Below are positions 28,206 through 63,419 of a stretch of 64,000 bases of DNA, piece by piece. Source of the DNA: Girardia tigrina (Eukaryota); assembly GCA_001938485.1 (NCBI GenBank), contig MQRK01182251.1:14024-78023 (forward strand). The letters run 5' to 3'. How positions within the stretch are numbered: position 1 is the stretch's first letter; each line of letters starts with the position of its first letter. The translations under genes were made by a program, and so were the position numbers. The notes under the pieces are model-generated. The model was not told the DNA's origin. It saw only the letters and a program-made list of their open reading frames with translations, and searched no databases.

Positions 28206-31200
28206 CATTTAGATTTAATGGCAATTTATTTATAAACAAAATAAAGAAAAACGCCATTTTATAAGTTTTTTTATTGTGCAAAACATGTTTTACCATTGCG
28301 GCATCATCAGTTGTGAAGTAATTTCGGACTAATACGCAATTAATCTTTTTTAATATTAAAAAATTTTAATATGATTGAATGCACTTGGAATATTTAAGCA
28401 TGGTTTTAAATGCTTTATTAATAATACATCAGTGACTATCTTCTTATTTTCGACACCGAATCGTCTTGTGTCAAATTGTCTTGCACATAATCTTCTTGTG
28501 TCGATTTGTCGTGTAACGAATAGTCGTGTGGAATTGTCTGTCACCGTTTTGAACAATTCTTTTACTAATTTTAACCCAATTTCTTTTCTGCTCACTCATT
28601 TCGACAGCTTTTCTTGTTAGCTACATTTAATTTATCAAGCTGGTTACAATACATATTCGCATTGATGATTTGTCCTTCCTTAAGCAGCAAGCAGTGCATG
28701 CTCGATCTCTTCTAATCACACAAAAAATGTTGCATGAGCTTCTGTTGATGAAGATTTGACTTTGGAATGATTGTGGCGTTTATTCTAGATTTGTATTCAA
28801 AGGTTTTTCGCTTTAAAGTCTAGTAAAGAATTCATTTGTCATTACGTCTGTCATAATATTGTCCGAAAGGGCTCTATAAATTTCTAAATGGTTCAGATAA
28901 ATTTCCTTTAGCCAATTGTACAGAACTCAGATACTCGATTTCAATTCAAATCCAGGATGTTTGATGAGTTCCTAATGGAGGATGCTGAGTTATTTTCAAA
29001 ATGATAACGTGGTTAAATATGGGTTTCTCTCGAATAGACCACAAAATATCACAATCCACCTTCAATAGCTGCCCAGATCGATCATATTCTTTCAGACTGA
29101 TTTCTCAATAGCTGCCCAGATCGATCATATTCTTTCAGACTGATTTCTCATCAGCGAAGTTTGACAAACCATGTCTGGCAGGTCCGAACATTTACATATA
29201 TATTTCCAAACGTGTAATATAAGTTTTTACAAGCAAGTGATGTTATGTTTCCTTTAGGAAATTTATACCATTTACACTGTTTTAAATACATTTTATGCAC
29301 TGATATCTTGTCCACTTTATATTTTGCCACTGTCTGATGCAGATTTTGATAAGTATTCCTTTTATGTTAAATCATAAAACTCTAAATGATTCATTATAAT
29401 TTAGGCAAAAAATGCGACTGGATTTTATTAAAATCATTTTATAATGTATGAATACAATTGTGTGAATAAATTTGAGAAGTATAAGAAATACGTTTTAAAC
29501 GAATGTTTAACATCATAAGATAAAAATATGATATTAAAAAGAGAGATTTTATATCAAAACATTCATATAATATCTTAAAATTAACCTCAACAATCTTAAC
29601 AGCAACTACAGTTTTTCCACTTCCCGTTGGAGAGCATATCAACACATTCTGGCCCTCTATTCCTTTTTTAGCAAGTTCTTCTTGATATTTCCTCATAACC
29701 AATGACTTTTTATTGTTATCTGGATCACCGTAATTTTTAAATATCGAAAGCTTCATTCAACTCACCAGCAACTTTATCATTTTCGGGACAGAAATTAAGA
29801 AGAGTCGCAACGCTTTTATGTTTACAAATTCCAAATAATTTATCAAATTCTACATCTTTTATGGAAGCATTATCATCATCACTATCGTCACTATCATCAT
29901 ATTTCTCGTCATCAACTTGGGAAAAATTGGATTTTGTATCTACATAATAATGATATTTAAGCACGTTAGAGCTTGAATGAAATCGTTAACCATCTTTCAT
30001 GGTGGAATCTTCCATTTGACAACCTTAAGATGGAAATGCTTTATTAATATACCCGTTTACAAATAAACATACTGTTGGAATGGCCATTACTTAATGTCGA
30101 ATCAACATTTTCAGAAAGACAGTCAAACTGAACCTTACCTGTGATTAATACTCAATAATAATTATTATTTCAAATACATAGATATATTAATAATATTCAA
30201 AGAAACAAACGGAAAAGAAATGATGATTTCAAGCCTGTTTATCAGCTAATTAGTGACTTAAATTCACCATTTGTCTATGTACTTGTAGCAAGATTGTAGA
30301 AATAAATGTTCCATATCATAATTATCACAGAGATAAATTTCTTTTATTTTATTATAAAATCGGCGCATTTCCGTCTTCAAAATATCGTTGCAAACTAATG
30401 CATCATATATAAATCCAATCTAACCATCCTCATCAAAAGCATTGTCCTTCATTTCATATATTATTAAACAAGGCATTTGATGGGTACCGTGCTCTTGCAG
30501 TTTCCATAATTTAACAGGCGCGTGAAATTTTTTACGAATAACAACAATTTCTCTTATGGTGAATATAAATGATGTTCCTTTAAATTGAGACACATTTTGA
30601 AAATATAATTTGATTAAAGCTTTTCTTATATAATTATATACATCATCATCAGCAATATTTGGATGTTTAGTATATGAATATTAAGTTGTTTTAATAATAC
30701 AATTTTAAAAAGGTATATAAAGTTTAAATGGAATAATTTAAAAAATATTAAATAATATTAAATTAAAACAATTTAATATTCATATACTAAATTGCCGAAA
30801 ATTGCTAAATTTCCGAGCAGAGCCAATACTGAGAAAACAGAGACAGAAGACAGCCCAGCCACGACAGAAGAAAGGAGTATACAAGTGCCTTCACTGCCCA
30901 AAAAATACATGTGCGCTTGATGGCTGAAGATCCACATACAGAAGAATCACCGAGAAGAACCAGAGCAATTCAACACCCAGAGAGACGAAAACTTGGTAAG
31001 AGAGGAAGAGTTGAACCCTCTCTTCCAATTGAACCCTCAGTTTCTGGACGAAACTGGGAGTATGCCGGGGACCCAGAACGAACAAGACGCTGAAGAAACA
31101 CACGGATACTACCGATTACCCGACATGAAGGCAAAAGGAAAATTCCAGTGTCCATTTCGCGGTTTTTACGTGTCCACCATAACTGCTAAAGGCATGTATG

Positions 31201-32896
31201 GCCATGGTACCAAGTTCCATGATTGGTTATTCGTCACTGACCTCGTAGGAGGCCTATCTGGGGCCCTTAAAGACTTTTGTTTGGGTGGACCCTCTAAAGA
31301 ACCTTAGGCTCAATACCATTGAAAGAGATGGGAGGCCTACATCGGAGAGACAAATAGTCATCTCAAAACCCGGATTAGCGAGGACCAACAAATTAGTCGA
31401 TCGAGTAAGTTTCTTGATCATTGATTATGTTGTAAGTAACACAGAGATATGTATTGTACAAGAGATATGTGGATGATGTATTTTTGGTTTTCAGAAATCA
31501 ATCCCTCATAGAACCATTCCTAACATTCATGAATGGTCTTCATCTGAATATTAAATTTACATATCATTTAAATTTAAATATCTTGTTCGATTATTTTTGA
31601 ACCACAACCCATTCTAATGAAATTTGAATTTATTTGTCATGAGTGATTGTCAATTTCAAAACAAAAATTATCGGTTTGGTATGTAAAATGAAAATAAAAT
31701 CCTGTACGTGTATGTGTATTGCCTAAATGAAATGTAAATATGTGTGTGTTCGATCGATTCATTGTCATTTTACCAGTTTATCCGATAATTAGTCAAATTG
31801 TGAGCCTCTTTCTAATGGTATGTGTATGTTTGCGTGAATGTGGTAGAAATGTACGATTACGTAATTATTACTGCGTGCATGTGTGTAAATAAAAGAAAGT
31901 GGATTAGGATTGGATGAATGTGTTTTTTATGTGTGTGTGTGTTTTGTGAACAATTATCACAATGATTCAATTTAAAAAAAATGGTTGAAAAAAGATTTCA
32001 TGACGGCCAAAAAAAAATTTTGTTGAATAAAAAATTGAAAACTCGGATATTGTCTTTATTTTGTTTTTAAAAATTTACTGCAAATTGAACTAGAAATCAA
32101 ATTTAAATTAATCGAGCAAGATGAATTTGTTTTTTTTTCGGTGAAAAATAAAGTGAAATCAACTCGCAATAACAAAATTTTCTTGGAATTAGTATTTTTA
32201 CTATCGATTTGTGTTATTTGGAGATTAATAAATCAACTCGCAATGTGATTATGTTATTCGTGTTACCCGAAAGATGATTATCATCAGATCGATCAGGAAA
32301 CACGACGCAAATTGCAGCTGGAGGCTGCTGAGAAACGACTTGAGTATAGAGGATACGATTCTGTGGGAATCGCGTTTGATAAAGATTCCAGTGGGGAAAT
32401 TGTTGTTTATAAAAAACAATGGAAAGTAATGGCTTTGGAGACTGAAGTTAAAGACAAAATGTGCGAAATAATTAATGAAGAAGTAGACGTTCATTCGGGC
32501 ATAGCTCATACTCGATGGGCTACTCACGGCGTTCCGAATGAATCCAACAGTCATCCGCATAGATCCGATCCTAACAATGAATTCAGCGTTATTCACAATG
32601 GAATCATTACTAATTATGAAGCAACCAACGAGATTTTGCAAAGAAATGGATTTAAATTCGAAACTGACACTGGCATTGAAATTATTCCAAAATTAATTAA
32701 ACAATTCTATAATAATCACTATGACAAATCCGTGTCATTCAGAGAACTAGTGGAATTGGTGATCTCGGAACTGGAAGGATCATTTGCAGTGATGTTTAAA
32801 AGCACTAATTTTCCAGGAGAGATTGTTGTGACTCAAAATATGAGCTCATATATATTGAAAATGAATCCACAAAAATAGTGGAGACACGGTTTCCTG

Positions 32897-32938
<42 letters not shown>

Positions 32939-35900
32939 CTTATTTGAACAATGTTTTTACTCTTTGGTTCAGGTATTAAAACAAGTCAAAATGCAGTAAA
33001 TAGTTCAAAACTTACATATTGCTGAAATACAGTTTACGTGAAATAATCAAGGATCAAAATTTATTTGTATTTTATTATTGCAAAAGAATATAACATTACC
33101 CTTAACTTTCGATTTGTTCTCCTCAGAAGAAATATTGTCTGTTTCCATATCAGTATTCTTTTGAGTAGTGGCTGGAAAAGATTTGACAAGTTAATGTGCA
33201 ATCGATAACATAATTATACATTTTAAATCCGTTCCAGAAGTGCATTGAGATCCTTCGTTTTTATCTCCATCTAAGCATAAATATTACAAAAATATTTTGA
33301 CATAAATTCATCCAACTTCTTTTGTTGTCTTCAATAATGGAAGATGCATATGCTAGAATAATATTTTTCTTTTCTTCTTCCGATTGACTTGAAACCAGCA
33401 CTGTAAGATTCATTGCTCATTATTAACTAATTATTGCGAATACACATCATATCAAAACTAGATCACAGAAATAAAAAAAGGTTTTCAAGTCTATTATTTT
33501 TACATTAATTATATTTTAGTAAAATGTTCATTTTTATTATACATTTTCAAAATCTATGATTGAAATCTAATATAATTTATCGACTGAATCCAGTTGTAAC
33601 ATTTGATACAAATTATTTCTAATACAAAAAGTAAAAATAATAACTAATTAATTTTTTATTTAACAAGGATGGGATTTAATCGATGATTATACATAATATT
33701 TAGTTTTAACAGTTTTTATTCATTTGAAATATCAGGGATTAAATCTTAAGAAAAATGTGATATTTAATATAATGTAATGTTTGTTAGCGAAATTGAGTCA
33801 TAAAAATGTGGATGACTTTTGTTTCTAGATGATATATTATAAATATTATTATTATAACTTCAAACTATACTTGTATGAAATACTAAACTTACCTTTAGGA
33901 TTACTAATTATTCACAAAATTCACAGCTCGATTTTTACTTTTTGTATTAGAAATGATTTGTATCAAATGTTACTGCTGGATTCAGTAATAATAATTTATA
34001 ATTCATAAGTAGATATTAAATCTTTATTGATGAATGCTTTGACGAATAACGATTGAATTCCTTCCTGAATTTGCGAAACTTGAAAGAACCTGTTGCAGTC
34101 GGTAATGAACTGCTCCAAATCATTGTGTCCATCGAATATTGTTGGCGCCAAATTGTTGATAACATTTGGCGTGGTCGCCACATAAGAATTTTCCATATTA
34201 AAAATCCAAAAAATTGATAAACGTTTATTTTTATGATACAATCAAATGATGCGCGTCTAAAATTAATTACACTGATTGATTTAAACAATCTCAGGAGTTT
34301 TTATATATTCAGGATCCTTTAATATAATATGATATTAATATAAATAATTATATGTATTTTAATTTATAAATATATAGTTGTTAATTATTCTCACAATATT
34401 AATCCGTTAATTATCTATTTTAAAATTTATTTAAACGTATTTCATAACTTTTATTAAAATATATCGATTGTTATGACTGCAAGTATATTTTAAATATGCA
34501 TTTAACTTTTATGACATTTTTACTTCACTTTTTAATTTTTAATTGACTTTTGTTAAATTTTCAAATTAAAAAAATAATAAACTATTTTGGCGAAATGCAA
34601 ATTAAAACTAACCCCTCAAACGATTAAAGGAATGTATCATTAACAAATATGTATTCGTTTCCCAGGTTTCCGTTTAGAAATCTTTCATCCATAATTATCT
34701 TTATTAATGTCATTCAGCCCTAGTTACAACTACAAAATATTTTTACCAAAATATATTTTCTAATCGCTGAAATTAAACTTCAAATACCACATCCTTGAAT
34801 TTAAGCTTAAAATTAAATTTAATTAATCAAACTTAACTGATTGATCCCAACCAATTAGTTAGAAATAAGGGAACTAAGAATGTTGATAAAATAAATTTAG
34901 TGGGTAATCGTTCGTAAATAAAAAAATAATAATGCTCCAAAAACAAAGAACTACTTTTCTGAAGATCTGATAAATACACTGGTATGAAATCGGTCTGGGT
35001 TGAATAGAAGATCTGCAATAGTTTACCGTACCAATTGTCACTGTTGTTCATAACAGCTAGAAGAAACTCGACTTTTGCTGAATTAATTATCTCAAATAAA
35101 TAACTACATCAATAAATAAAAAAGCATTTTTAATATGGTTTTTGTACAACAATTTCGAAATTACATGGTCCACAAAAAGCTATCTTTTTTACACAGATGA
35201 TTTACTTTAACACAATATCTATGTTAATAGCTTTTATTAAAAAATACTTGCAAAATAATCTACACAAGATGAGATATCTAACTAAAAGTAATATACTATC
35301 ACACATAGTGTTTTGGAGTGCTGCATATCTAATTAGTTAATCTTTTAAAGAGTTATTAAAAGTCCGCTGTGACATCGACTCAATCAAATTCCGAAAAGTA
35401 TGCGTAATAGGGATATCTCTGATCTAAGCAAATAAGAGATGAAGAGACCTTCATTAGTAAAGATTATTTCCTTTTGCGACCAGCACTTGGTAATAGCTCA
35501 GAGTATCTAAATCGGGTTGAGGTCTGGGCAATTGCCCGGCCATAGTAAAGCTGCAGAATGATTGTCAAGGAAACATTTTATGGTTTTCCTACTGTTGTGG
35601 CAATGTGCTCAATCTTGCATAGACATAAAATCACCAGTAAAAAACCCACTCATGAGCTTGAGGTATCATCCGAGTTGTGAAAATTTGTCGGAGTTCGTAG
35701 TTTTCTTTACAAAATGCAACTTGTCACAAGTTTTTGTACTCATCATAGATCACATTAGCACCTTTGTAGAAAATTTTACTCTGGATCTTGTTTGGATTGG
35801 CCTATCACTTCCATGCTAGAAACGTCGTACAGATGTTGTTTCCCACTGAAAGGAAGACTCGTCTGAACAAACTTTTAATAGATCCTCGACTCTCAAACCA

Positions 35901-38900
35901 GCATAATCATTGGCCCACTGGCGACGTTTCTTACAAATTGCAGCAGTCATTAAAGGCTTATGAACTAGTTTTACACTCATAACTCCTTGTTTCTTGAGTC
36001 TAAGTTATGCTTTGTGTATAATATACTTGACACTTCAGTGGTTTCATGAGTTGCTAATGGATTATGTAGCACAAATAGACAAATTTGGCGGTCTGTCTGC
36101 AAGGATGTTGCTCTTTTACGTTCACATTAGCCAAATGGAGAATTAGGGGAGGTATCTTGCTTCTTCATACACTGGACGGTACTTGTACATTAGATTGGCC
36201 CTTAGCTTTATTGAAATTTTCGAAAGTCAAAATTTTATACCTCCAACCCATAATCCTGTTCTAATCAACCAAATAAGGAACTAAGTGATCGAATATATCT
36301 TATGCAAAATTTCAGCTCAATTGGACAATTTCTAGGCGACTCTCAAATGCCTTCAACTTGGAACATAGTATGATATTACATAATTATTACTTTTGACGAT
36401 GTTCTTATTTACTACACCAATAAATTATAACACAAAATCATTTTTATCTACAACAATAACGCCATAGAATCAAAATATAATGTAAACATACATACTCCAC
36501 TTATAGACTTCTTCTCGTTACGAGATAACTGAAATTGATTTTGAAAAAGGTATATCTTGAATTCATAGATTGCCTTTGCCATCCATCTGATATGGCTTAA
36601 AGCTATTGCTATACGAAACGATATTAAGTTTCTTGGAATGCCGCCAAGAAAGATCATTGTTAACTTAAACAATTCTCGGTAATCATCTTTCTGCTGTTTT
36701 TTTCGTAGAAAGGTAGTGTTCATCATTAGGCACTTAATTACCACCAGTTATATAAACGTTCTTGTCGAGTTTCGTCCAGGCTTGTCTAAATCTGCTGAAA
36801 AGCGTCATGTCTGGAGAAGTGAATCGAAACAGCTCCTAAAAACCAACTTAAAAATGTGAGGACACCAACGGAGGTACAATAGATAACGATTGAATGGCTT
36901 TTCTAGGTTTGTACAGACACCATTTGCTTAAATTATTTTGCTTGCTGTCGAATCACAACAACTAGCCTGAATTTTGTCGGTTAGGCCCCATTTCTCTACT
37001 GCTTGATAAGCAGTCATAGCTGAAGATGTTTAAATTTTATGGACTTCCAACAATTGTTCCTTGCTTTGAAAATTTACTATTATTGCCAGTCTATCTACCT
37101 TTTCAACACCAGTGAGTACTGGCAGTAGCTTTCCATCCTAGTGTAGCACCAATTCTTGGCAATCATTTAAGCTAATGTTTTTCTGAATTTCTGAATGTTC
37201 TGCTTCTCAATTTTTTAAGGTTTTGAAAAGAAATGCGATTTATCACCAGGTTTTCAGTATCACATCATTAATATGTAAACCCCATTACTGTACGTAATTT
37301 TGTACTGATCAAAAACTTCAGCCAAACAGGGAGTGAAAAATGGTGTTGTTGAACTTTTGCTGGTGTTGATCATATTTTCTGATCGACGGCAGGTGAACTT
37401 TCACTATCGTCAGCACTATCGCTGTCTTCTCTAATTGATGCTGAATCATCAGTCTTCCTATATAATGGTCTATATTATCAATTATTTAACAAGCCATTTG
37501 TCATATATATACCATGCCCTACCAAAAGTCTTTTGTCAGCAGCTTTTGCCTATTTTTAACTGGTCGCAATGGAATCTATAACATTTAAACCTAAATAGAA
37601 TGCAGAAGACATGTGAGGCAATGGAAAAATTAGTATTTAGTACAGTTTCCTTTATCTCTTATGACTGCTCTTACCTGGTTTGACATAGAATCGACCATTT
37701 TTTTCAGGAGCTGAGGAGAACTATTTGCATATTCTTCCCGAAGCTGAAGTTCTAATTCAGTGGTATTCCGTGGAAGCACCTGCATTTTACGAACGGCTCG
37801 GTCTACCTAATCTCATAGGAATTCAATTGGGTTTAAATCGAGGCTTTGTGGCATCCATTTCAGTACATTTATGCTATTTGTTTTAAAGAAATCCTTAATG
37901 AGGTGCGACCTATGGATTGATGTCATATCGTGTTGGAAGAGAATATCGGCAATTTCTGAAAGAAATAGAAGCAGTTCATGTTCAATGATTGCTCGGTACT
38001 CCATGAAAATGACATAAGAAGAAAAGAAAAATATTATTCTAGCATATGCATCTTCCATTATTGAAAACAACAAAAGAAGTTTCGTGAATTTATGTCAAAA
38101 TATTTTTGTAATATTTATAATTCTTTAATTTTAGATGACTTTCTCAATTAACTCATAATACAACAGAAAAGAGTCAAGTATGTTTCTGACCAAAGACTTT
38201 TGGTAGGGCAGGGTATATAGTATCCACAGCTTATGTGGCCTCTTAGAATGTGTTTTCGCTAAATATGTACAAACTATTTAGAAAAAAATAATATAAATAA
38301 TAATATATGGGTGTAATAAGACGTATTTACCGTATTTTCTCTTTTTCTTGTAAATATTTAATAAACTATCCATTTTTGCATCCGTAATCAATTTCATTTC
38401 TCTTGCTTTAAACAAAATAGATTCATTCAGCTGAAGATTGTCAAGGTGATCGACACCTTGATTCCTTAATAGTTGTGAGCACCATTTCTCTGAGTCAGTT
38501 GCTTCGGAACATGAATCCTCAGACATTATAAAATCAGTCTCTGATAAAAAATAAAATTATTGTAAGTTTTTATTTATGTATTTTAAGTGATAATATTTAG
38601 TAATAAATATAGTTTGATGCCTTTATACATACCACTTTCTGATTTGATAATATATATGTATTTCAATGGTAATATGAAGTGAAGTATATGTATATATATA
38701 TATGAATGTGTATATGTGTGAGAAATATAAATATGAAGAAATATTTACTACTTGTGACTGAATAGTATAATTAAATATAACCTAATATTATTAGGTGTAC
38801 AACTAATTAATTTCGTATTTGTTACGAAATAACCTTATATTCGTATTTGTTACCTGATTTCATATTTGTTACCTCATTTCGAATTTGTTACTAACCTCAT

Positions 38901-47900: not shown

Positions 47901-50900
47901 TTAATTCGCCTTAAGAAAGAGATCAAATTACTGGAAAAAACCATTTGGAAAAAAAGAATGATAGAAGATTATTTTCAACATAACGAAACATGGTTTTATG
48001 ATCATGTATCATATATTAGTGCACATGTGATGTTTTGATTTTGTCCTACATTTCTGGGTGCTTGCAAGAAACGTTTCTCGACCCGCTCACTGCACAGCTT
48101 AAGACAGCATGTTGTCTCTCACACCATGAAGTTTTTTCATCAAATACACTTATTCGATAGTCTGTGCACCATTGACGAAGGTAAAACAATTTTAATTAAT
48201 TAGAAGTCAATTGATATGTCTTCAACTTTGCCACTGAAGTATGTCAGTATCTTTTGGAATATTTTCTGAAGACAAGGCTTAATTAACAGAAGCTGTAAAA
48301 GCTGTTGATAATCTAAATCTTCCGATCTCTATTCCTTTGACTACGGGATTTGGAGTAAAATGAAAGCGTAGATTTATCACAAAAATAAACTAACCACATT
48401 TCAGACTTTTTGTGAGACAGTTATTGCATATGACTGTGATCTATTTGAATATATATTTTAGACGCTTACTGAAAGCAATTAACACAGGTTTATAAGTCCC
48501 AATGACTAATACATTCATATATGCAATTTGTTTTGGAAAATCCCTTGTTCTCAGGGTAAGAATCTCTATCAAAATGTTACGTAACTTTAGGGGACCTATA
48601 TATTATTAATGGACTGCATAAGTTCCACAAAATTATATTATACTGTTTTTTTCGCCATGCTCCCTCAGATATGCATGTAATTCGTCATGCTCATAATCGT
48701 CGATCAAACCGATAACTCTGCACTGGTGTAGCACCGTGTCATTGAGACAAATATTCGTGTGCTCCTGCACTTCTGTCTTAAATAACTTCCTTGTAAAGTA
48801 CAATATCCTTTGTTTCTCTTTCGCCTCTTCACCATCATAGAAAAAAGGTTTGATCCATTCCGATGTTTCTGTTTTATCAATATTACTCAGGAATAATATA
48901 CAAAATTATACACTCTTGACGAGAATAACATGAACACTAAGAAAATAATTTTATTACTTAATTTAATACATTTACATGATAAAAGATAAAATAGGAAGAT
49001 AAATAAGCTTTGCCTTTTTAATCCTAATAATAAATCATCGTAGAAATAAAATTGATTTGAAGAATAAAATTTCAGCAATATGGAATAGTTTTGTTAATAA
49101 ATGTCATGATTTATTCAATTAAAAGAATAGAAGAATAGATACCATAACCACAAAGGTCGATTTTACAAGATTTTAAATAGTAGGATAGTCGAATTCTTTT
49201 GAATTGAAAATCAGATGTCCGAATTCTTTTGAATTGAAAAGCAGATGTCCGAATTCTCTCGAATTAGGGAAGAAATTTTAAAATGCGAATAAAATTTTTA
49301 TTATTTAACTTTTTTATTTGATTTCTTCAAATTATTTTAGAACTATATTTAGATTATCGTAAAATATCAAATTAGTTCATCTATAATACAAATAAGTGTT
49401 TATTATTTGTAATTACAATTTTTTAATAAAAAATGATTTTTTAGTAGTAGAAATCGTTAGATGGAGTATCAAATCTTATGTAATCAAAGATCAGAAATTG
49501 AGTAACAAAACCATAAGGAAGCCCTGAAGCATTAGTTGAGATTAAAAAAATATATTTAAAAGTAAACAACAGTTTCAACGCACATAGTCCTCAAGTTTTT
49601 TATAGAAATAATGAGGTATTCATTCTAATTTAAAGTATGAAAGCCTTTGTTGACAAACAAGCATATAAAACTGATATTAACTTTGGACAATCCTACGTTT
49701 CAAAGCATTTTAGTTTTTTGCGGCGAGTTAAAAAAAAATTAATAACACAATAAAAAATAAGATTTTGTGGAAGTTCAATAAGGACTTGAGACTTGTTAAA
49801 CCTACTGTCAAAGATTGAGTCTCAGTAATAATCTAGAATTCACAAATCCTAGACCGAAGCTGTTAAGGTTTATAGAAGCACATCAGATGTGTAATTCATA
49901 TTAGTATCTAAAAGTTTTGAATAAACCAATCAGATCAATACTATATTTGTATTTTCCTGAATCCGATGTGTGAGGAATGTTTTATATTTTATATTTTGCA
50001 GGTTGTATGTTGATTCGGATTGTGTCTCTCCTACCCAGATGGTTGATTGGTATTTTCTTTGATTCCTACTAATTCAAAATAATTTCATTTCATTTTTAGG
50101 TAAAAAGATGTAAATATTTTTTTATTTATTTTAAAAGTTAGTATGAATTTCAGAAATATATTAATCAAGAAAAATGTCGAATAGCGAAAGTGGTTTGAAT
50201 AATCGTTGTAATGATGATTCTGTTTGTGACGTTGTAAAGAGATGGAGCGTTCAAAATGATACATTTCAGATTAAGTGCAGCAGTCTGCAAAGTCAAATCC
50301 TACTAAAAATATTTGACCTTTCTAAAGGAAAAAGTGATGTAAATTTGTTTTCCAAATTACTAGCAATATTAGGAATTTGGTTGCCATTTAAACTCTTAAA
50401 AAATAAGCACTTTTCATAAATAACCGTTAAAATGAGATCATTGAAAATCATAAATATTTGATTGTTCAAAGTGATAAATGTATAATTATTAATGTTACGT
50501 GTATTTCTTCATTTATAAAATTTCATATTCCGGAAATTATCTTTTTATATGAAATTAACAAATATTTTTTGTGTCCATCTTATTTTTGCTCATAATATTA
50601 TAATCAATCAATTGACATAAGGTTAAAAAAGGTAATTTTCAATTTTGACAAGCTTCAATCCGGACGAAGATTTAAGGCCAGAATCATCAATTATAGTTTA
50701 ATATTTGTTAGTTTTAAAAAATGTTAATTTTAATGAATGATTTAGAAAGTTTTTACTTATATTTTAAGATTTGGAACGATTTTATTTTGTCATTTTGAAT
50801 GTTAATTAATGCATTGTATTGTTCTCAATAATGATTCACAGAATTACCACTCATAATGTGAATGAAAGCCCTTCTGTAAAGCAGAAAAGTGATACTTTTT

Positions 50901-61941: not shown

Positions 61942-63419
61942 TAATAATATAAAAAATTGTACGCTCTTTATGAGACTAAAATGAACACTAAGAAAATAAT
62001 TGTATTACTTAATACATTTACATGGTAAAAGATAATATAGATGGGATAAATAAGCTTTGCTTTTCTAATCCTAATAACAGATCATCGTTTACGTGTTAGA
62101 TTTGAATTTAAAACTGAAATTTGATATTATTTTTAGTTATTATTGATGTTTATGTTCAATTTAATAAAATTATGATTTGCTTCAAAAGGTCTGATAATAT
62201 TGGTCATTGTGTTCAATGAATTGCTGAGGATTTATTTGATATAAGGGAACTCTAAAAGATTACATCAACTGTTGGAACTCTTTTAGGATAAGTAGGGACA
62301 ATTATTACTATTTTAAATAAACCTGGAGACTAAACTACCAAAATTCATATGTATATGAACACGTAAAATCATTTTTATTAATAATTTTAAAAATAAGTTA
62401 ACAAAGAACAACTCGACACGTAACGCAACAACAATAATATTTTTTAAACTTGTCTATGAATGATGCTGAATAACACTAATAAATCTTACTAACACAAATG
62501 AACCACAATCACAGTTCTCTGTTGCGAAAATTAAGAGCGTTATTTGTAAGATTGTTATCAATTCTCAGGTTTTTGAGTGATGGATTGTCCACAAGATTTA
62601 AACAGAATCTTTGGAGATATTAGGACTTTTGATTCGAGAATAAGTGTAGCGACTGTAATACAGGACGTTTCTTTTTCCGCAGACGGTAACTGGGAAGTAA
62701 ATGTTTTGTAATTTTATTCCATAAATTAAACAATCAATAGCGCATTGATTTTTTTTATTATTTTTATAATACTTTTATTAATTAATTTTAAATACATTAA
62801 ATGATGATCTTTGAATAATTTCAGGAAAAAAATATAATTTCGAATTGTGCTTGGCGAACAGATTGATAAAATAGAGCATCTTCATCTATCTCATTTTGAA
62901 AGCAGGATTTCAATGTTTAACAATACATTCCAGCAAACAATTTACAAATATTTACAATCTTCTTTTTCATCGAGATAATTCTTTGAGACACTTACAATAA
63001 TATTGAATTATAAATAATAAAAACCTATTTGTATTATAGATGAACTAATTTGATATTTTACGAGAATCTAAATATAGTTCTAAAATAATTTGAAGAAATT
63101 ATTATAAAAAAGTTAAATAATAAAAATTTTATTCGCATTCGAAAATTTGTTCTCTAATTCAAATTCGGACATCTGTTTTTCAATTCGAAAGAATTCGGAC
63201 ACTTAATAAAAATTAAAATATAAATATAAGTAATGAATTACTTTTAATTCAATAAGGATTATTTGTAAAAAACACATTTAGTTATTATTCTATAAATATT
63301 TGAATCGATTATATTTTCGTTTTTTTAATGTTTCGAGGAAAGAAAATTCGATACTTCAATGCGTGAGAAAGTATTTTTCATGCATGTTAAAGAATATAAG
63401 TAAAGGAAATTTTAAAAAT

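What the first reader, a model, noticed from the sequence alone, without database searches (positions are those of the whole stretch)
37512..38213. Intronic Tc1 element captured an antisense copy of the host gene's own exon and 5' splice site
Seen: between the TIRs of a deleted Tc1, 38016-38118 is a 103-bp inverted copy (about 4 mismatches) of 33277-33379, i.e. most of module-3 exon C plus most of its downstream 46-nt intron. The retained intron points to DNA-level capture (Pack-TIR-like). Inferred: the pre-mRNA of this dsRNA sensor could form a roughly 100-bp duplex masking that exon's donor. This could cause in-frame skipping (84 nt, phase 1-1), ADAR editing or endo-siRNA, a possible self-regulatory loop.
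Basis: partly seen in the sequence, partly recalled or inferred. Interest (0 to 1): 0.72.

Follow-up and report, generated by a model that had tools for sequence, protein, structure and literature searches.

The report
Repair-copied antisense exon inside dead transposon
A dead jumping gene inside a likely antiviral RNA-sensor gene holds a 103-base backwards copy of part of one of that gene's own exons, likely pasted in by DNA-break repair; the exon is spliced in normally in the RNA assemblies examined, so the copy is likely a harmless leftover rather than a self-regulating switch.

Summary
38016-38118 is a 99/103 inverted copy of 33277-33379: 63 of 84 nt of exon C plus 40 of 46 nt of the next intron. 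It occurs once in the assembly, inside an internally deleted Tc1 in an intron of a RIG-I-like helicase gene. It fits a single-copy Pack-TIR made in place by gap-filling repair: parent 4.6 kb away, 4-nt microhomology, intron kept, younger than the element. A sister Tc1 holds a similar 91-bp inverted filler. The regulatory loop is not supported. Contigs of 4 of 4 spliced RNA runs (3 studies) include exon C, with no skip or retention contig. Contigs lose rare and NMD-targeted forms, so a minor effect stays open. One twist: 3 of the 4 mismatches sit on donor positions +4 to +6. The copy keeps the older donor, which a second allele shares, while this allele's donor changed, opening the predicted duplex there. 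That is one event, possibly chance. The scan noted a similar Tc1/mariner capture elsewhere in this genome (e1-8625618). Verdict: new member of a known kind, low interest.

The parts
37510..37511 (.). Left TA target-site duplication
37512..37539 (-). Tc1 terminal inverted repeat (3' end of the element), 28 bp, 2 mismatches to the other TIR
37512..38005 (-). Tc1 3' part with broken C-terminal transposase remnant (second D and E of DD34E, 34 residues apart); 90.7% to the family majority sequence
   Evidence: (DDE_3 E 9e-4, below the curated cut-off)
38006..38015 (.). 10-nt filler at the junction, source not traceable beyond chance
38016..38118 (+). Captured 103-bp copy of exon C (63 nt), its donor and 40 nt of the 46-nt intron; antisense in the host pre-mRNA
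38115..38118 (+). 4-nt microhomology shared by the Tc1 and the template end
   Evidence: chance of 4 nt or more 0.02
38115..38213 (-). Tc1 5' end including TIR 38186-38213; 94.9% to the family majority sequence
38214..38215 (.). Right TA target-site duplication
33277..33379 (-). Parent segment in the host gene, 4,636 nt from the copy
33317..33400 (-). Exon C of module 3, 84 nt, phase 1-1; encodes the linker and helix after a CARD-like region; included in all spliced RNA contigs seen
33271..33316 (-). 46-nt intron; donor +4 to +6 (33313-33311) differs from the copy and from a second allele
33220..33270 (-). Exon D, 51 nt
34955..35077 (-). Exon B, 123 nt; lies in the loop between the two arms
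38331..38540 (-). Exon A, 210 nt; the Tc1 sits in the 3,253-nt intron that follows it

Best explanation
This is a single-copy captured fragment inside a dead Tc1 transposon in an intron of a RIG-I-like helicase gene, likely made in place when a DNA break in the old element was repaired by copying 103 bases from the opposite strand 4.6 kb away, and likely without a function, since the copied exon is spliced in normally in the RNA contigs examined. Steps: (1) a Tc1 inserted at a TA in the intron after exon A (shown: TSD, TIRs, family); (2) it aged to about 8.6% from its family (shown); (3) a break or gap took out about 776 bp of its middle (shown), and one end annealed on a 4-nt microhomology near exon C's short intron and copied 103 nt (inferred); (4) the new end rejoined the Tc1 3' part with a 10-nt filler (filler shown, route inferred); (5) the copy has not spread (shown for this assembly); (6) afterwards the copy gained one substitution and this allele's donor changed at +4 to +6, or the template was another allele (inferred); (7) a duplex may form in some nascent transcripts, but the dominant mRNA keeps exon C (inclusion shown, rarity of the duplex inferred).
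For: Single copy: only 2 places; none of 39 other scored Tc1 copies has the insert. Intron kept. Microhomology of 4 nt, chance 0.02. Age: element 51/596 from the family majority; the copy has 1 private change against about 8.8 expected, Poisson P 0.0015, or 0.008 with the family median. A diverged allele (run X2) has the Tc1 left end at the same site and shows no insert-junction contig. Sister copy L069 holds a 91-bp, 95.6% inverted copy of nearby element DNA at an internal break. Tan et al. 2021: 160 of 281 Pack-TIRs lie under 15 kb from the parent, most under 5 kb; 67.6% have microhomology; 16 of 33 human cases lie in the parent's own gene (my count). A random 103-bp template within 5 kb would cover an exon end plus donor in 4.9% of positions, half of these antisense. 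RNA: exon C included in X3, X8 and X4, X7. In one search the depth of bin 33188-33375 equals the including contig alone (728.9 x 110/188 = 426.5; 4.39 x 110/188 = 2.57).
Against: The gap is 56% of the element, far above the 4.6% median of Tan et al., and one breakpoint is 99 bp from the end; this fits repair after excision better than an internal break. If all 4 differences are counted the age test is not significant (P 0.06 to 0.18). The duplex is long and stable. In fly cells only about half of introns are spliced within 2 kb, so the arm could still be attached when exon C appears 1,678 nt later. Contigs drop rare forms, and an intron-retaining form would carry an early stop. It is not shown that the RNA samples carry the insert; they match the window's exon-B letters, not X2's. 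All 16 same-gene human cases copied intron, not exon, so this layout is less common.
Confidence: 0.8

Rival explanations
1. Mildly harmful accident followed by escape: the antisense copy first hindered use of the weak donor, and selection favoured a 3-nt change at +4 to +6 that opens the duplex at the U1 site and adds a G at +5.
For: The older donor (GTTTCG) is shared by the copy and by the X2 allele and is one letter from the donor of paralogous exons in modules 1 and 2 (GTTTAG). The window allele's only private change in the 103 bp lies on the donor, giving a 3x3 loop between helices of 34 and 66 bp.
Against: It is one event. With about 40 free intronic positions, a hit on the donor has very roughly a 10% chance (my estimate). 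The template may simply have been another allele. The window's donor letters were not seen in any DNA-run contig. 4 of the 5 other RNA-supported donors read here lack G at +5. A 3-nt loop removes little of -139.5 kcal/mol.
Confidence: 0.07
2. Functional self-regulation: the pre-mRNA duplex causes conditional skipping or intron retention, ADAR editing or small RNAs, tuning the sensor.
For: Predicted duplex -139.5 kcal/mol over 63 nt of exon and most of the short intron; skipping would be in frame; the splicing-timing data do not exclude pairing; Tan et al. raise sense/antisense regulation for Pack-TIRs as a possibility.
Against: 4 of 4 spliced RNA runs include the exon, with no alternative contig. 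No other letters in exon C in X4, X7 and X8. The copy is young, with no compensatory change, and the host moved away from pairing at the donor. Other transposon-made inverted pairs exist in the same locus, one with arms only about 290 nt apart in the intron before exon C.
Confidence: 0.05
3. Capture tied to transposition: the element excised or hopped locally and abortive gap repair copied the host piece.
For: Large gap (56%) and a breakpoint near one end, the pattern Tan et al. expect after excision.
Against: The copy looks much younger than the element; family copies are 89-96% to the majority sequence (54 alignments), so activity seems older; the Tc1 stands at the same site in a diverged allele. 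The outcome, a neutral single copy, is the same.
Confidence: 0.06
4. Assembly artefact or an inversion allele between the two arms.
For: The one X1 contig that holds the copy's letters runs on into host 33380 and beyond, as a flipped 4.6-kb segment would; the filler junction was not seen in the tables; the assembly is fragmented (255,254 contigs).
Against: That contig also holds the Tc1-copy junction and all 4 copy-type letters, so the junction exists in reads. A 50-nt identical stretch lets a short-word graph cross between the arms. An inversion alone does not explain the 10-nt filler. RNA shows exons A-B-C-D in normal order.
Confidence: 0.02

Closest known systems
Single-copy Pack-TIRs of animals (Tan et al. 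2021, PMC8277862; read: abstract, introduction, sections 6-8, 10, 14, passages of the discussion, Supplementary Data 4 whole, Supplementary Data 1 rows 1-97 of 370)
   Same: Tc1/mariner ends around non-TE DNA, single copy, parent under 5 kb away, microhomology at one junction and a short filler at the other, younger than the element, often inside the parent's own gene (16 of 33 human cases).
   Different: The captured piece is the host's own coding exon plus donor, in antisense; all 16 same-gene human cases have intronic parents and orientation is not listed. The gap is 56% of the element against a 4.6% median. At 103 bp it is near the lower size limit.
P-element gap repair with filler DNA (as summarised in the introduction of PMC8277862; primary papers not read)
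   Same: Template switch to nearby DNA during repair of a break in a TIR element.
   Different: There the break follows induced excision; here the age gap suggests a later break, though this is not settled.
Pack-MULEs and gene capture in plants with small-RNA cross-talk to the donor gene (10.1101/777037, start of abstract in a search listing only)
   Same: Gene fragment inside a TIR element that could direct silencing to the donor.
   Different: Those are often multicopy and act in trans; here one copy in cis, small RNA untested.
Pre-mRNA duplexes that steer splicing or ADAR editing: looped-out exons, docking/selector pairs, editing complementary sequences (PMC7404189, passages; Eperon et al. 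1988 seen only as a reference title)
   Same: Long complementary intronic arm that could pair with an exon and its donor.
   Different: No effect on splicing or editing seen in the contigs, no conservation or compensatory change, arms 4.6 kb apart in different introns.

Membership tests
Single-copy Pack-TIR | Non-TE sequence of 100-5,000 bp between both ends of one TIR element | tested here: met
   113 bp (38006-38118) between Tc1 arms, both TIRs and TA TSD present; criteria
Single-copy Pack-TIR | Unique parent at 90% identity or more, length ratio 80-120% | tested here: met
   96%, 103 of 113 bp, one parent
Single-copy Pack-TIR | BLAT score of at least 100 (pipeline cut-off) | tested here: inconclusive
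   BLAT not run; 99 matches and 4 mismatches would give about 95 by the recalled scoring, so their pipeline might just miss it
Single-copy Pack-TIR | Not a retrocopy (intron kept) and parent not flanked by TE within 100 bp | tested here: met
   40 nt of intron kept; X2 depth is flat from 33060 to 33491 and the first repeat shared by both DNA runs starts at 33493, 114 bp away; X1 has one short low-likeness match at 33435-33470
Single-copy Pack-TIR | Single copy, close to parent | tested here: met
   4,636 nt apart; no further copy; searches give lower bounds in a fragmented assembly
Single-copy Pack-TIR | Microhomology at a breakpoint | tested here: met
   4 nt at one junction, chance 0.02 in 20,000 random breakpoints; 10-nt filler at the other
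Single-copy Pack-TIR | Element without the insert at the same site in an outgroup | tested here: inconclusive
   X2 allele has the Tc1 left end (64 letters past the junction) and 24 letters of the right end, and no insert-junction contig; absence from contigs is no proof
Single-copy Pack-TIR | Typical (not defining) small gap, median 4.6% of the element | tested here: not met
   about 776 of 1,380 bp
Tc1 (DD34E) | TA TSD, short TIRs, transposase with 34 residues between second D and E | tested here: met
   spacing counted by hand in the window remnant and in L006; the DD34E label is recalled
RIG-I-like receptor (host gene) | DExD/H helicase, Helicase_C and RIG-I C-terminal domain | tested here: met
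   Pfam DEAD, Helicase_C, RIG-I_C-RD above cut-off; best hits molluscan RLRs at 44-50%
RIG-I-like receptor (host gene) | N-terminal CARDs | tested here: inconclusive
   No Pfam CARD hit on single exons; own profile gives 18.4 and 12.4 bits for spliced modules 2 and 3 against a best of 10.8 in 500 shuffles
Regulatory exon-intron RNA duplex | Changes splicing or editing of the paired exon | tested here: not met
   4 of 4 spliced RNA runs include exon C, no alternative contig; majority level only
Regulatory exon-intron RNA duplex | Pairing kept by conservation or compensatory change | tested here: not met
   three sequences only; no compensatory pair, host donor moved away from pairing
Regulatory exon-intron RNA duplex | Duplex forms in vivo; small RNAs made | not testable with these tools
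   only contigs were available for the RNA runs

The most novel reading that the evidence does not exclude
A double-stranded-RNA sensor gene acquired, by a repair accident, an intronic antisense arm against its own exon, donor and branch-point region. Its donor then changed by three bases to open the duplex exactly where U1 binds. This would be a datable, allele-resolved case of a splice site escaping a self-made RNA duplex, with a residual duplex that could shunt some transcripts to skipping, retention and decay, or editing during infection.
Probability: 0.08. Interest if true: 0.65.

Novelty: new member of a known kind. Interest (0 to 1): 0.24.

Why it matters
As it stands it is a clean invertebrate example of in-place gap-filling capture, a described class, and shows how repair makes long intragenic antisense arms that splicing can ignore. 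It would matter more if allele comparisons showed that the arm impairs splicing and that the donor change rescues it. That would test directly whether a 100-bp duplex across 4.6 kb and two introns can form in vivo, and how a dsRNA sensor copes with self-dsRNA in its own transcript. Alleles with the old and the new donor exist, so the test is feasible.

Tried and rejected
Source of the 10-nt filler: best exact matches within 15 kb are 8-9 nt, chance level in this AT-rich DNA; an 8-nt match inside the copy itself (snap-back) is possible but not significant. Local template for the changed donor letters: best 10 nt at 31910, not convincing. U1 pairing energies for old and new donor came out in different registers (-1.3 and -1.7 kcal/mol) and are uninformative. 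Paralogue as template: rejected; modules 1 and 2 exon C are far more diverged and the DNA search finds no third copy. Large inserts in 4 other Tc1 copies (L021, L025, L029, L045; 213-971 bp) are flanked by short repeats, look like nested insertions and have no convincing source in the ~3 kb held; not counted as captures. No run on record as RNA was listed and none as raw RNA reads; X3, X4, X7 and X8 are treated as RNA because they show GT-AG joints. Zero X1 depth at 33060-33276 is a hole in filtered contigs and proves nothing. In one search, 26 joints and 140 variant rows were not shown, so the no-skip statement rests on depth arithmetic. The protein atlas gave no result for the CARD-like module. 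No fold or complex job was run. Literature searches for a TIR element with an antisense copy of its host's own exon, or for such a case in an RLR gene, found none (with 0 papers, 56, 57; open-access library only).

Full report
1. The observation. The inverted pair 33277-33379 / 38016-38118 is real: 103 nt, 99 identical, E 5e-42 in the window. Searching the 1.43-Gb assembly with the host side or with the insert and both junctions finds only these two places. The insert lies in a Tc1 at 37512-38213 with TA on both sides and 28-bp TIRs. The family is large: 811 first-look candidates, 40 scored. Full copies are about 1,380 bp with a DD34E-type transposase. None of the 39 other scored copies matches the insert. 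The window copy keeps about 494 bp of the 3' part and 99 bp of the 5' end; about 776 bp are replaced by a 10-nt filler plus the host piece.

2. The host gene. Minus-strand frames give Pfam DEAD, Helicase_C and RIG-I C-terminal hits, and the best protein matches are molluscan RIG-I-like receptors at 44-50%. Three repeated N-terminal modules are visible. Modules 2 and 3 splice into one open frame and score 18.4 and 12.4 bits on a profile of RLR N-termini, against a best of 10.8 in 500 shuffles, so they are CARD-like at moderate support. Contigs of spliced runs fix the exons A 38540-38331, B 35077-34955, C 33400-33317, D 33270-33220 and E from 33171, all with GT-AG introns. The Tc1 is in the 3,253-nt A-B intron. 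The copy covers 63 of 84 nt of exon C and 40 of 46 nt of the C-D intron, and is antisense in the pre-mRNA.

3. Is it in the reads? A contig of DNA run X1 joins 26 nt of the Tc1 5' end to the copy, with all 4 copy-type letters, so that junction exists in reads. X1 may be the assembly's own sample and is not independent. The contig then continues into host 33380 onward. The likeliest reason is a short-word graph crossing the 50-nt identical stretch. An inversion allele would look the same but would break the exon order that RNA shows. The filler junction was not seen in the tables printed.

4. How it arose. The kept intron means a DNA template. One junction has a 4-nt microhomology (chance 0.02), the other a 10-nt filler of untraceable source. 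The element differs from its family majority at 51 of 596 positions. Run X2 carries a diverged allele of the host segment, which lets the 4 differences be sorted: three adjacent ones at donor +4 to +6 are private to the window's host allele, one (33329) is private to the copy, and X2 has one of its own (33278). One private change against 8.8 expected gives P 0.0015 (0.008 with the family median). With all 4 counted the test is not significant (0.06-0.18). X2 has the Tc1 left end at the same site and shows no insert-junction contig, a weak hint only. So the capture likely came well after insertion and happened in place. A control from the same family: of the 39 other copies scored, one (L069, picked because its matches were split) holds a 91-bp, 95.6% inverted copy of DNA 367 bp away at an internal break; L070, picked likewise, is a plain deletion. 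Against a purely internal break stand the large gap and the breakpoint near one end, which Tan et al. expect after excision. Either way it is gap-filling repair.

5. Does it regulate? On paper the arms give -139.5 kcal/mol: 34 bp, a 3x3 loop on donor +4 to +6, then 66 bp including one G-U. The arm's intron ends 1,678 nt before exon C begins. In fly cells about 25% of introns are spliced within 1 kb and over 50% within 2 kb, human ones later (10.1101/611020, passages), so timing neither forces nor excludes pairing. The RNA data speak against a major effect. X3 (study P2) and X8 (P4) run A-B-C-D-E in one contig each, and the depth of bin 33188-33375 is exactly what that contig alone gives (426.5 and 2.57). 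X4 (P2, same sample as X3) and X7 (P3) each lay one record, with exon C included. That is 4 of 4 spliced runs, 3 samples, 3 studies. Exon C shows no other letter in X4, X7 and X8; the X3 piece was not printed. Limits: contigs drop rare forms; retention of the 46-nt intron, which is at least as likely as skipping for so short an intron, gives a stop after 18 codons and would likely be degraded; no infected or small-RNA sample is identified; and the RNA samples are tied to the insert allele only by matching exon-B letters, where X2 differs at 3 sites. The locus holds other transposon-made inverted pairs, one with arms about 290 nt apart just before exon C. A random 103-bp template within 5 kb would take an exon end and donor in 4.9% of positions, so no selection is needed to explain the target.

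6. The donor twist. The copy and the X2 allele read GTTTCG, paralogous exons in modules 1 and 2 read GTTTAG, and the window allele reads GTTGGA. The window's donor is therefore the derived one, and the change both unpairs the U1 site from the arm and adds a G at +5. This may record escape from a harmful duplex. But it is one event, the template may have been another allele, the letters were not seen in a DNA-run contig, and most other donors read here lack that G. I give it 0.07.

7. Comparison. It works like, and passes the tested criteria of, the single-copy Pack-TIRs of Tan et al. 2021 (PMC8277862): 160 of 281 lie within 15 kb of the parent, most within 5 kb, and 67.6% have microhomology. 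By my count 16 of 33 human cases lie in the parent's own gene, all with intronic parents. The antisense own-exon layout is the less common feature here; my searches found no paper on it. It fails the tested criteria of a regulatory exon-intron duplex. An earlier, unreviewed note of this scan describes a Tc1/mariner patched with a VCP fragment elsewhere in this genome (e1-8625618); I did not check it, and I had reached this reading before seeing it. PMC5762160 was seen as abstract only and is not relied on.

8. Verdict. Observation confirmed; capture mechanism supported; regulatory loop not supported at the level that contigs can see. New member of a known kind, interest 0.24.

Noticed in passing
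window 32249-32878 (+): Intronless open frame of 209 codons with a glutamine amidotransferase match (Pfam GATase_7, E 2e-4, below cut-off; GFAT-like by recall), antisense in the RLR intron after exon E. Parts of it match 39 places among 36 scored candidates in the genome, two of them in split pieces as if with introns: a multicopy, intron-free gene fragment.
   Followed up: partly
window about 62000-33220 (-): The RLR has three CARD-like modules, each with the same exon series; modules 1 and 2 are 86-94% identical in DNA including introns, a recent internal duplication. Module 1 was not checked against RNA.
   Followed up: partly
L069:1876-1966 (G000:C198822): Sister Tc1 copy with a 91-bp inverted copy of its own internal DNA at an internal break.
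   Followed up: yes
window 35190-36880: About 1.7 kb of the A-B intron is absent from the X2 allele, an insertion polymorphism.
   Followed up: no
window 33583-33986: Inverted pair of 56 nt, 95%, about 290 nt apart, in the B-C intron just upstream of exon C; predicted -68.5 kcal/mol.
   Followed up: no
window 30267-30680 (-): Two open frames of 86 and 51 codons without a clear Pfam match; the RNA contigs join exon E to about 30130 and so pass over them.
   Followed up: partly
window 49216-49422 / 62999-63201: 208-nt inverted repeat pair, 90%, 13.6 kb apart, predicted -224.6 kcal/mol; whether both arms are transcribed is unknown.
   Followed up: no
L064 and L065 (G000:C184625, C208380): Two further helicase C-terminal matches at 45% and 61%, possible RLR or Dicer-type paralogues; L064 has one stop inside the match.
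   Followed up: no
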